A stretch of 22,962 bases of DNA. It comes from Octopus sinensis (Eukaryota). Location of the stretch: positions 1-22,962 of the forward strand of contig NW_021836628.1 in assembly GCF_006345805.1 (NCBI RefSeq), given 5' to 3'. Position 1 is the first letter of the stretch. Each line of letters starts with the position of its first letter. Below are positions 13,701 to 16,700 of the stretch, piece by piece. The position numbers were made by a program.

Positions 13701-16700
13701 GTAAGAACGATGATGATAATGGTGGTGGTGTTGATGATGATGATGATGATGATGACAGTGGTGGTGATGATAATGATGATGATGCTGCTGATGATGATGG
13801 TGGTGATGATGATGACAACGACTACAATGCTGATGATGATGACAACTACAATGATGATGATGATGACAATGACAATGATGGTGATGATGATGATGATGAT
13901 GATGATGAAAAAGAGGAGATACAATACAAGCCAACAAAAGCACTTCTAGGCAGTCAGTCATTCTGCTAGAAGTAACTGCCAAATGTTCCTCAAATTACAG
14001 CCTGCTAGCTTTACAAACAGGAACTCATTGGCTAAAATAGTCCTAGATACACTCTGTATAAACACGACCCACCCCCATCCCATGGTGTGGTCATAATTGG
14101 AATGCCTTTGATCGTAAGTCAGCACTAGGATGGACCTTGAATAGCTCTAACTGGATATCAAATGTCTCCATAAAATGCAGATATATCTCTCCACCCGACA
14201 CCCACCCTGCCAACATGTCTCCACCCTACCCTGTCCTTCTACCCAGTCTATCATTCCCCACCATCACTCTATCCCACATCACCTGATCCAGAAAACACAG
14301 CAGCCTCCACACAGACGTTCTACTTGCTAGAAATAGCAACCAAATTCCCCTCAAATCACACTCTAATGTTGTCAGAACAAAACAAAAGCAAAAAGAAAAA
14401 ATAGGACACATTGATAAAAGCTGTTTTAGATACATTACCTGAATAAAAGAAAAAAAAAACAAAAAAAGGACAGACAGGATGGTCATGGATGGAATTCGTT
14501 TGATCATAGATCTCTATTCAATCAAAATTCAGAATCGATTTAATGGACAATAACAACAACAGCAACAAATGATGTCACCATCAACACATCCATCCTTTGT
14601 ATGTTTTAGAGATGATTTACACTCGAAATATGCCCATATTGGAAAGCACCCTCCACTCACGCACACACCACTCTCTTGTTTGCTGTGTCATACATGACTT
14701 CTCTCAACTACATTTCTGCCTCCACCCCTTCCCCAGTCTTACTCAGCTTTTACGAACAGCCCTCACATTAAACAAGATCAATATATACAAAGCCGTCTAA
14801 TCTATACCGCCACAAGAAAATAGATTATTCAGTTTTATTCCAAAGCCTGTCCAAGAATGGATTTTTATTTATTTAGTATTTATTTTGCTCTGTCTTTGCT
14901 GGAAACCGTAATGATTGATTATCAGGACAACTTTTCTGTCACTTGAATAAAATGTTGGTTATATATGACGGCCAAATCAACAGGATTAGATCACTTGAAA
15001 AAGAAACACACAAAAACCATTCTAGCTGAGCCACTCACAAAGATTACAATCCTGTTATTACGGAGAGCAATGGAGAGAAAGCATTTTCAAAAAACATTAT
15101 TCTATGTTATTTTATCAGATTTTCATTATTACCATTCCATGGTTAGGTGGTGAGCAGCAGGCAGAAGCATTAGGACACTGGGAAAAATGCTTAGCAGCAT
15201 TTCACCCATCTTTACATTCTGAGCTCAAATTCCTGAGGTTGATTCTGCATTGCTTTTGGGGTCAATAAAATAAGTACCAGTTGATCGCTGGGGTTGATGT
15301 AATTGACTCTCTCTCCCCTCTCCTGAATTTTCTGGCTTTGTGCCAAAATATTAAACCAATTTTACTGCACCAGGCAAAATGCTTGGCGGCATTTCATCCG
15401 TCTTTATGTCCTGAGTTCAAATCTTGCCAAGGTTGACTTAGCCTTTTTATGTTTGTTACCAAATTGTTAGATACGTGTTTATTCTGCGACTGTTTAGGCA
15501 GGATTTTTACAGCTGGATGTCCTTCCTAACATCAACCACTCAGCAAAGTGGACTTAGTGCATTTTACATGGTACAAGCACAGATGAGGTCAATTTTGGCA
15601 AGGTTTTTACAGCTGAATGCCCTTCCAAATGCCAAACACTTTACAGTGTGGACTGGATGATTTTTAAGTGGCACCTGCTATTCAAGGTCCATCCTAGTGC
15701 TGACTTACGATCAAAGGCATTCCAATTATGACCACACCATGGGATGGGGTGCGTCGTGTTTATACAGAGTGTATGTAGGACTATTTTAGCCAATGAGTTC
15801 CTTTTTGTAAAGCTAGCAGGTTTTTACAGCTGAATGCCCTTCCAAATGCTAAACACTTTACAGTATGGACTGGATGCTTTTTAAGTGGCACCTGCACTGA
15901 CAGGGTCACCAAGTACCTTGCAGGACAAAAAAAAATCTCTTTTGAGAGAGGAGGGGCATTGGAAGAGTTGATCTTGTGTCAGAGCCAGCACTGAAAGTTA
16001 TGAGATTTTGTATACGAATACACCAATGTAAATAATGCAATCGAAGATAGAAAAGTAAGTAATGCGTGTATTTGCACATTTCAGGAGTTATTGCTCCTTC
16101 ATCAGTGCCACATCCAACCCATTACCCATATACGAACACATTGCTTAAATAGCCACAAAGTTTAACAGTGTAACACTACTGGACAGACTAATTTACATAT
16201 TAAACTTGAAATATGCATAGACACCCATTAGCTATATTTCTATCCTTGATCGCATTGTCTACATTAAAATATTCACAAAAATGTCCTAATTTCAGAGCTG
16301 ACCCTGAATTCTATAGAATATCTGTAGAGATAACTTAAAAGTAATTGTATTGCACTGCTAACTCAAAAAGGTAGATACCTTTTTGAGTTAGCACTGACTT
16401 ATAAACCTTTGCGAAAATTAAATGCAGTGTCCCTTCCAAAATATGTACCTAACCATTTGGTCAATCTTGGCAGAATTTGAACTCAAGACATAAAAATGGA
16501 CAAAATACCACAAAGCATTTTGCCTGGTGCAGTAATGATTCCACCAGTTTGCTATCTTATGGAGCAGTAAAAATGGTTAAATATTTTGGCACAAAGCCAG
16601 AAAGTTCAAGAAAGGGGACAAGTCAATTACATCGATCCCAGTGATCAGCTGGTACTTTTTTTATTAATCCTGAAAAGATGAAAAACCATTTGGTAAAAGA

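What the first reader, a model, noticed from the sequence alone, without database searches (positions are those of the whole stretch)
14001..15895. Duplication / inverted local insert / duplication: a clean template-switch scar
Seen: 15677-15820 is the reverse complement of 14001-14145 (3 substitutions, 1 indel). It sits between two copies of a 78-bp segment (15601-15678 and 15818-15895; 3 substitutions). The junctions overlap by microhomologies gc and agg. Other family F and E copies in the window are far more diverged, so this is not ordinary repeat similarity. Known: this layout is what replication template switching (FoSTeS/MMBIR) or Pol theta templated insertion produces. Inference: one event copied 144 nt from the opposite strand about 1.5 kb away and re-primed 78 nt back. 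The similar divergence of insert and flanks fits a single event.
Basis: partly seen in the sequence, partly recalled or inferred. Interest (0 to 1): 0.72.

Follow-up and report, generated by a model that had tools for sequence, protein, structure and literature searches.

The report
Short duplication enclosing an inverted local copy
A 78-base stretch of non-coding repeat DNA occurs twice, with an inverted copy of a 144-base segment from 1.5 kb upstream wedged between the two copies; this looks like the scar of one DNA-copying error of a well-known kind and is otherwise ordinary.

Summary
15677-15820 is the reverse complement of 14001-14145 (97.2% over 145 columns: 3 mismatches, 1 gap). 15601-15678 and 15818-15895 are direct copies (75 of 78). 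The junctions share GC and AGG.

These are the two most identical of the 19 non-simple self-matches listed for the window, and they abut. 14001-14145 is the donor, because an old diverged paralogue aligns across both of its ends. The 139-nt insert has no terminal inverted repeat and no poly(A) or poly(T). Neither Rfam nor the tRNA scan finds a known RNA there.

The best reading is a single event. A growing DNA 3' end left its template, primed on 2 nt, copied about 140 nt of the opposite strand 1.5 kb away, then re-primed on 3 nt, 78 nt behind its point of departure. Fork-based and break-induced versions cannot be told apart. Polymerase theta is a poor fit by insert size and distance.

A two-step history, a misassembly and a multi-copy source are not excluded. 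No eukaryotic genome, reads or orthologues were available. The octopus origin is unverified. This class of event is already documented, so interest is low.

The parts
14001..14145 (+). Donor segment (part of an old repeat unit, F1, about 13955-14209) that was copied in reverse complement.
   Evidence: 97.2% match to 15677-15820 on the opposite strand. The diverged paralogue F2 aligns across both of its ends, so this copy is the original.
14312..14597 (+). F2, an old diverged tandem paralogue of F1, used here only to show which copy is the donor.
   Evidence: Local alignment of 13955-14209 with 14312-14597 scores 74, against a shuffle mean of 37.9, sd 6.2 and maximum 62. It has 175 matches, 59 mismatches and 71 gap columns.
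15501..15600 (+). E0, the older full 100-bp unit of repeat family E, directly upstream of the duplicated unit.
   Evidence: 69% identical to 15601-15678 at a start-to-start spacing of 100; aligned in A1.
15601..15678 (+). E1, the first copy of the duplicated 78 bp. It is cut off at unit position 78, where the copying strand left.
   Evidence: 96.2% identical to 15818-15895. The E tail that follows position 78 in E0 and E2 is missing here.
15677..15678 (.). Junction 1: 2-nt microhomology GC, shared by the end of E1 and the start of the inverted copy.
15679..15817 (-). Insert proper: 139 nt that are the reverse complement of 14004-14143.
   Evidence: It has no terminal inverted repeat, and its longest A run is 3 and longest T run 5. 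It differs from the donor by 3 substitutions, all transversions, and a 1-nt length change in a homopolymer run.
15818..15820 (.). Junction 2: 3-nt microhomology AGG, shared by the end of the inverted copy and the start of the E unit.
15818..15895 (+). E2, the second copy of the duplicated 78 bp. It continues without a break into the E tail (15896 to about 15925) and an A run (15927-15935).

Best explanation
This is the scar of a single complex copying error in non-coding, repeat-rich DNA: a 78-bp tandem duplication with a 139-nt inverted, locally templated insertion at its joint.

Described for a + strand growing left to right, the steps are as follows. The 3' end copied the E unit up to position 78 and came off its template. 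It annealed through 2 nt (GC) to the + strand at 14144-14145, about 1.5 kb behind it, and copied that strand leftwards down to 14001. It came off again and re-annealed through 3 nt (AGG) to its original template at the first base of the E unit, 78 nt behind its point of departure. It then carried on, copying those 78 nt a second time. In the four-point notation for template switches the order of the points along the ancestral sequence is 3-2-4-1.

Shown: the layout, the direction donor to copy, the microhomologies, and the lack of mobile-element hallmarks.

Inferred: that it was one event, and that a nascent strand was the actor. The return behind the point of departure means the strand re-used a template it had already copied. 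That favours a displaced nascent strand, as in microhomology-mediated break-induced replication or another D-loop-like intermediate, over a simple slip inside an intact fork. Fork-based and break-based versions cannot be separated from the sequence.

The event has no evident function. Its product is a 145-bp inverted repeat with a 1,531-nt spacer.
For: The two repeat pairs are real, and they are the two most identical of the 19 non-simple self-matches listed for the 23-kb window. They abut exactly, overlapping by 2 and 3 nt.

Microhomology of at least 2 and at least 3 nt has a joint chance of 0.0079 under random blunt joining.

The donor is 14001-14145, because the old paralogue F2 aligns through both donor ends. 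The copy's flanks are E sequence with no F-like similarity: flank tests gave fractions of 0.66 and 0.95 of random 30-mers scoring at least as high.

E1 lacks the E tail that E0 and E2 have after position 78, as expected if one unit was copied partly twice.

Divergence of the insert (3 of 144 plus one 1-nt indel) and of the duplication (3 of 78) does not differ (Fisher p = 0.43 and 0.70). Of the 3 E1/E2 differences, 2 are derived in E2 and 1 in E1 by comparison with E0 and the copy near 18640. Both copies have therefore changed since the event, which argues against a fresh assembly artefact.

Literature, read as passages. The four-point model covers exactly this kind of switch and return (PMC5453318). 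[quoted passage not shown]
Against: No ancestral or empty allele was seen, so 'one event' rests on parsimony and on an age match based on only three differences per pair.

A microhomology of 2 nt alone is expected in about 16% of random joins.

No extended similarity or unusual single-strand structure explains why these sites were used. In the four flank tests, the fraction of random 30-mers scoring at least as high was 0.24, 0.046, 0.66 and 0.95. Five DNA folds gave z-scores between -0.47 and +0.56.

The first human-chimpanzee survey of short-range switches found no event with point 4 before point 1 (PMC5453318).

The distance of 1.5 kb is longer than the short-range, same-fork events those studies model.

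The genome-wide copy number of the 144-mer and read support for the assembly are unknown.
Confidence: 0.68

Rival explanations
1. Two steps. A recent tandem duplication of a 100-bp E unit first gave E1-E2. A separate template switch of the common forward kind (order 3-2-1-4) then replaced the last 22 nt or so of E1 with the 139-nt inverted copy.
For: E units already stand in tandem with a 100-bp period (E0 to E1), so the site is prone to unit duplication. The forward kind of switch is the most frequent class in the surveys and needs no re-opening of new duplex (PMC5453318). The age match rests on 3 against 3 differences only.
Against: It needs two rare events of similar age at the same spot. 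These are the two youngest of the 19 listed duplications in 23 kb, and they abut to the base. E0 and E1 are only 69% alike, so unit duplication here is not frequent.
Confidence: 0.12
2. Double-strand-break repair rather than replication. In one version a break in the E unit is repaired by synthesis-dependent end joining: one end snaps back on its own resected strand 1.5 kb away and is extended, while the other end is extended on the sister copy. In the other version a staggered break is filled in and captures a local fragment of about nucleosome size.
For: Junction microhomologies of 2-3 nt suit end joining as well. Snap-back synthesis gives reverse-complement inserts taken from the same strand (PMC5068794). 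The GC used at junction 1 is its own reverse complement, as snap-back priming requires. The 4 differences in 144 nt are close to the roughly 1 error in 30 bp reported for POLQ-templated inserts.
Against: In that data set POLQ inserts are mostly under 25 bp, about 85% are primed within 10 bp of the break, snap-back is a minor part, and the events accompany deletions. Here the insert is 139 nt, the donor is about 1.5 kb away and there is a 78-bp gain. The duplication needs an extra assumption: extension of both ends, or a 78-nt stagger.
Confidence: 0.12
3. Assembly artefact: a chimeric read or a mis-joined haplotype created the inverted piece and the duplicated 78-mer.
For: No reads were available, and repeat-rich invertebrate genomes are hard to assemble. 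One of the four donor/insert differences is a 1-nt homopolymer length change, a typical read error.
Against: The window contains no N. The copies differ by six substitutions in all, and the derived states among the three E differences lie in both E copies. Artefactual copies should be identical. A mis-joined haplotype does not explain an inverted piece from 1.5 kb away with microhomology at both joints.
Confidence: 0.05
4. Mobile-element readings. Either 14001-15820 is a transposon with 145-bp terminal inverted repeats, or the 139-nt piece is a small mobile element or retrocopy with a 78-bp target-site duplication.
For: A near-perfect inverted pair 1.5 kb apart looks like long terminal inverted repeats. 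TTACAG occurs just left of 14001 and again 3 nt right of 15820.
Against: The TTACAG on the right does not abut the repeat. The F2 paralogy runs straight through the left 'end' at 14001. The 78-bp copy inside and outside the right 'end' is unexplained. The insert has no terminal inverted repeat and no poly(A) or poly(T). There is no other copy in the window. No Pfam family reached its cut-off in the 21 ORFs scanned, out of 56 listed.
Confidence: 0.03

Closest known systems
Template-switch mutations under the four-point model (Loytynoja and Goldman 2017, PMC5453318; Walker et al. 2021, PMC7954356), in the class where point 4 precedes point 1
   Same: One switch and return. The middle fragment is a reverse-complement copy of nearby sequence. 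A return behind the point of departure leaves a direct repeat around the inverted piece. Walker et al. report 'many events' of this kind and read them as strand invasion with a D-loop, as in break-induced replication.
   Different: Those studies model short-range events within one fork, tens of bases in size. Here the donor lies 1,455-1,531 nt away and the copied piece is 139-144 nt. The 2017 survey found no event of this class. I read passages only. Its Supplemental Fig. S1, which shows the 12 conformations, and Walker's S1 Table and S5 Fig were not seen; for S5 Fig I saw the legend only.
FoSTeS / MMBIR: copy-number gains with microhomology and templated insertions at the joint
   Same: Microhomology of 2-3 nt at each joint, a gain of sequence, and an inserted piece templated in cis in inverted orientation. 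The mechanisms are named in the passage of PMC5453318 seen. The original papers (Lee et al. 2007; Hastings et al. 2009) are recalled, not read.
   Different: The classic cases are kilobases to megabases in size and were seen as new human rearrangements. This one is 217 bp of added DNA, old and apparently neutral.
Small inverted triplication (SIT), with DUP/IN/DUP architecture (PMC13334657)
   Same: Two direct copies around an inverted piece of similar size. SIT medians are 148/160/148 bp, against 78/139/78 here. SITs are ascribed to replication errors near Okazaki-fragment ends, and their breakpoints lie preferentially near microsatellites. Here a (GAT)n array ends 93 nt from the donor.
   Different: In a SIT the inverted piece is the same sequence as the flanking copies, so the result is a triplication, with a spacer of about 30 bp and a 6-bp reverse-complementary junction. 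Here the inverted piece is unrelated to the duplicated E unit, its source is 1,455 nt away, and the junctions are 2 and 3 nt.
Polymerase theta end joining with templated (snap-back) inserts (PMC5068794)
   Same: Priming on very short identity, template switching, reverse-complement inserts in the snap-back mode, and error-prone synthesis.
   Different: Those inserts are mostly under 25 bp, are templated within about 10 bp of the break, and come with deletions. Here the insert is 139 nt, comes from about 1.5 kb away, and comes with a duplication.

Membership tests
Template-switch mutation (four-point model) | The middle fragment is a reverse-complement copy of nearby sequence on the same chromosome. 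| tested here: met
   15677-15820 is the reverse complement of 14001-14145, 97.2%.
Template-switch mutation (four-point model) | A single switch and return explains the whole difference from the ancestral sequence. | not testable with these tools
   No ancestral, orthologous or allelic sequence was available. The present layout is fully described by four points in the order 3-2-4-1.
Template-switch mutation (four-point model) | Short range, within one replication fork. | tested here: inconclusive
   The donor is 1,455-1,531 nt from the target. This is beyond the tens of bases modelled in PMC5453318, but it is local.
FoSTeS / MMBIR | Microhomology at every joint. | tested here: met
   GC and AGG; joint chance 0.0079. 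There is no longer similarity.
FoSTeS / MMBIR | Sequence gain with a templated, possibly inverted, insertion from a site nearby. | tested here: met
   78 bp duplicated and 139 nt inserted, from 1.5 kb away.
FoSTeS / MMBIR | Arises during replication or break-induced replication. | not testable with these tools
   This is a historical event and sequence alone cannot show it.
Small inverted triplication (SIT) | The central inverted fragment is a copy of the same segment as the flanking direct copies. | tested here: not met
   The insert matches F at 14001-14145, not E. E/insert flank similarity is at chance level.
Small inverted triplication (SIT) | Short spacer (median 30 bp) and a reverse-complementary junction of about 6 bp. 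| tested here: not met
   The distance is 1,455 nt and the junctions are 2 and 3 nt. Medians are from PMC13334657.
Polymerase theta end joining, templated insert | A small insert templated from the immediate flank of the break, usually with a deletion. | tested here: not met
   139 nt, from about 1.5 kb away, with a 78-bp gain. Compare PMC5068794.
DNA transposon with terminal inverted repeats | Terminal inverted repeats bounded by a short target-site duplication that abuts them, with the ends of homology at the element's ends. | tested here: not met
   No abutting duplication. The F2 paralogy crosses 14001.
Retrocopy / SINE-type insertion | A poly(A) or other 3' tail next to a target-site duplication. 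| tested here: not met
   In the insert the longest A run is 3 and the longest T run is 5, and neither sits at a junction.

The most novel reading that the evidence does not exclude
This scar may be one visible example of a genome-wide class in this (putatively cephalopod) lineage. In that class, inverted templated insertions of about Okazaki-fragment or nucleosome size, flanked by short duplications and made by kilobase-range template switching, would seed long perfect inverted repeats. If transcribed, such a repeat would fold into a long double-stranded RNA; the predicted duplex of these two arms is -267 kcal/mol. It could then feed RNA editing or small-RNA pathways. Birth of RNA hairpins and microRNA-like stems by template switching has been proposed at much smaller scale (PMC8794818 and 10.1101/2023.04.19.537475, both seen only in the listing and abstract start).
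Probability: 0.07. Interest if true: 0.5.

Novelty: new member of a known kind. Interest (0 to 1): 0.2.

Why it matters
On its own it matters little. It is an apparently neutral scar in repeat-rich non-coding DNA, and it belongs to a class of complex mutation already documented in apes, yeast, worms and human disease loci.

It is a clean worked example of three things. First, a template switch that returns behind its point of departure leaves a direct repeat around an inverted insert. Second, such events occur at kilobase range, between the 'short-range' and 'CNV-scale' literatures. Third, they create long inverted repeats in one step.

A genome-wide count of such scars would give a direct read-out of replication-error mutagenesis in a lineage where repeats make up much of the genome.

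Tried and rejected
(1) Transposon with 145-bp terminal inverted repeats spanning 14001-15820. Rejected: no abutting target duplication, the old F paralogy crosses the left end, and the 78-bp copy is unexplained.

(2) Retrocopy or small mobile insert with a 78-bp target duplication. Rejected: no tail, no terminal repeats, and no other copy in the window.

(3) Gene conversion of an old inverted F copy. Rejected: there is no residual F-like similarity beyond the ends of the copy.

(4) Small inverted triplication. The architecture is similar, but the defining identity of the inverted piece with the flanks is not met.

(5) Longer imperfect homology guiding the switches. Of four flank tests only one reached 0.046 uncorrected, which I treat as chance. 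An inverted, diverged E-family fragment with its (GAT)n head lies at 13620-13908, 93 nt left of the donor, but the copy stops well short of it, so I draw no link.

(6) Hairpins or other single-strand structure at the break sites. None exceeded shuffles.

(7) Known RNA genes. Of 103 Rfam matches at E up to 1, none reached its gathering score, and all lie in simple repeats. ARAGORN found 0 tRNAs.

(8) Coding potential. 21 of the 56 ORFs of at least 70 aa were scanned against Pfam. 0 of 21 reached a curated cut-off, and 3 had weak matches at E 0.017-0.09. My recollection that 12323-12538 resembled a mariner transposase found no support there.

(9) Using the protein database as a proxy for repeat copies and for taxon. 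An open 62-aa frame over the donor gave no candidates, and a 164-aa ORF over neighbouring repeats gave 48 candidates, none at E of 0.001 or better. Only near-length proteins were searched. These blanks say nothing about genomic copy number.

(10) No genome-wide DNA search was made.

Full report
WHAT IS THERE. The window is AT-rich DNA (62% A+T, no N), full of simple repeats (93 tandem-repeat rows). It shows no convincing genes. Of 103 Rfam matches at E up to 1, none reaches its gathering score, and all lie in simple sequence. ARAGORN finds no tRNA. Of the 56 ORFs of at least 70 aa I scanned 21 against Pfam, and none reached a curated cut-off.

15677-15820 is the reverse complement of 14001-14145: 97.24% over 145 columns, with 3 mismatches and 1 gap (E 1.4e-64). 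The repeat finder gives arms of 73 nt at 100% and 75 nt at 96%, 1,531 nt apart. On either side stand 15601-15678 and 15818-15895, which match at 75 of 78 positions. The pieces overlap by GC on the left (15677-15678) and by AGG on the right (15818-15820). The insert proper is 139 nt, at 15679-15817.

CONTEXT OF THE TWO FAMILIES. E is a unit of about 100 bp. E0 (15501-15600) is followed at a spacing of 100 by E1 (15601-15678), and the two are 69% alike. E2 (from 15818) runs on past position 78 into a tail that aligns with the tail of E0, then into a run of nine A (15927-15935). E1 stops at position 78. Another copy lies at 18624-18713 (74.7%), inside a longer interspersed repeat that begins with an (ATC)n head. 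A diverged, inverted fragment of that same repeat, with its (GAT)n head, lies at 13620-13908, 93 nt left of the donor.

F is older. 13955-14209 aligns with 14312-14597 at score 74, against a shuffle mean of 37.9, sd 6.2 and maximum 62, with 175 matches, 59 mismatches and 71 gap columns. That alignment runs straight through positions 14001 and 14145. So 14001-14145 sits in its original context and is the donor, and 15677-15820, whose flanks are E sequence, is the copy.

IS IT MORE THAN REPEAT NOISE? One search lists 19 non-simple self-matches of at least 80% identity and 40 nt. These two pairs have the two highest identities (97.2 and 96.2%; the next are 92.7, 92.5, 90.9 and 90.5%), and they abut to the base. 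Within the window there is no other copy of the 145-mer and no other E/F junction.

The insert has no terminal inverted repeat, and its longest A run is 3 and longest T run 5.

Under random blunt joining, microhomology of at least 2 nt at one joint and at least 3 nt at the other has a joint probability of 0.0079. Beyond these few bases the flanks are no more alike than random 30-mers of the window: the fractions reaching the observed score are 0.24, 0.046, 0.66 and 0.95. Single-strand DNA folds of the E unit, the donor and E0 are unremarkable, with five folds giving z between -0.47 and +0.56 (one search was a size-limit error).

AGE AND DIFFERENCES. The insert differs from the donor by three substitutions, all transversions, and by one base in a homopolymer run. 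E1 and E2 differ by two transitions and one transversion. The two divergences do not differ (3 of 78 against 3 of 144, Fisher p = 0.43; counting the indel, p = 0.70), but with so few differences this test is weak. Comparison with E0 and the copy near 18640 shows that two of the three E differences are derived in E2 and one in E1. Both copies have therefore changed since they were made, which speaks for age and against an assembly artefact.

I could not confirm this: the two protein searches were blank. If it is, the rate of 0.0036 per site per million years quoted in PMC13282606 (passages) turns 6 differences in 222 sites into about 3.8 million years, with a Poisson range of 1.4-8.2. Some of the differences could instead be errors of the polymerase that made the copy. 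About 1 error in 30 bp was reported for POLQ-templated inserts (PMC5068794, passages). In that case the event is younger.

MECHANISM. The simplest account is one nascent 3' end and two switches. It leaves the E template at unit position 78 and primes on GC on the + strand at 14144-14145. It copies leftwards to 14001, then leaves and primes on AGG at the first base of the E unit. It then carries on, so that 78 nt are copied twice.

For a rightward-moving fork, the + strand behind the fork is the lagging-strand template, and synthesis on it runs leftwards, as required. The copied length, 139-144 nt, is about the size of an Okazaki fragment or a nucleosome. This last point is inference only.

In four-point notation the order is 3-2-4-1, so point 4 lies before point 1. 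The first human-chimpanzee survey found no such event. Its authors noted that this order requires the newly made duplex to be opened (PMC5453318, passages). [quoted passage not shown] I therefore lean towards a displaced nascent strand of the MMBIR type over a slip in an intact fork, but the sequence cannot decide between them.

RIVALS. A two-step history would be a recent 100-bp tandem duplication of E, followed by a forward-type switch that replaced about 22 nt. It needs two rare events of like age at one spot, but it cannot be excluded without an empty allele.

End joining after a double-strand break fits the microhomologies, and in its snap-back mode it fits the inverted orientation. However, POLQ inserts are mostly under 25 bp, about 85% are primed within 10 bp of the break, and they come with deletions. 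Here 139 nt come from about 1.5 kb away with a 78-bp gain.

The small inverted triplications recently described have a similar DUP/IN/DUP layout and size: medians 148/160/148 bp, spacer 30 bp, junction 6 bp (PMC13334657; abstract, Introduction, sections 2.4 and 2.5, Discussion). There, however, the inverted piece is the same sequence as its flanks, which is not the case here.

Transposon, retrocopy and gene-conversion readings each fail a defining feature. A misassembly is unlikely, given the six substitutions and the derived E states in both copies, but no reads could be examined.

WHAT STAYED UNCHECKED. Four things could not be examined: the genome-wide copy number of the 144-mer and of the junctions, orthologous or allelic empty sites, read support, and the taxon. 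I made no collection scan. The supplements that show the twelve four-point conformations and the event-type proportions were not seen.

VERDICT. The event belongs to a known class, lies in non-coding repeat DNA and has no evident function. Its only tangible product is a 145-bp inverted repeat whose arms would pair at about -267 kcal/mol if transcribed. Interest is low.

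Noticed in passing
window 11321-11710 and 12736-13106: Two copies of a repeat of about 390 bp stand in opposite orientation, 90.5% alike. Less similar copies (81-85%) lie at 18268-18461 and 22561-22723. By eye the copies begin with a tRNA-like head, but ARAGORN reports no tRNA. They are probably two insertions of one young SINE-like subfamily rather than another switch scar.
   Followed up: partly
window 6388-6567: A tandem duplication with a period of about 101 bp: two 79-80-nt copies, 92.5% alike, separated by 22 nt.
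   Followed up: partly
window 13620-13908: A (GAT)n array of about 67 units (13709-13908) adjoins a diverged, inverted fragment of the same interspersed repeat family as E. The better-preserved copy at 18531-18720 starts with an (ATC)n head. The array ends 93 nt from the donor segment.
   Followed up: partly
window 15156-15440 and 16460-16675: Another inverted pair of a SINE-like repeat, 84-90% alike in pieces, with an internal 55-nt direct repeat at 15176-15230 / 15368-15422 that is 80% alike. It lies directly upstream of the E units.
   Followed up: no
window 16353-16396: A 44-nt near-perfect palindrome, 90.9% self-complementary.
   Followed up: no
window 17454-17936 and 20583-20789: Longer-period tandem arrays inside simple sequence: a 91-bp unit in 2.4-2.9 copies at 89-95% matches, and a 49-bp unit in 4.2 copies at 91%.
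   Followed up: no
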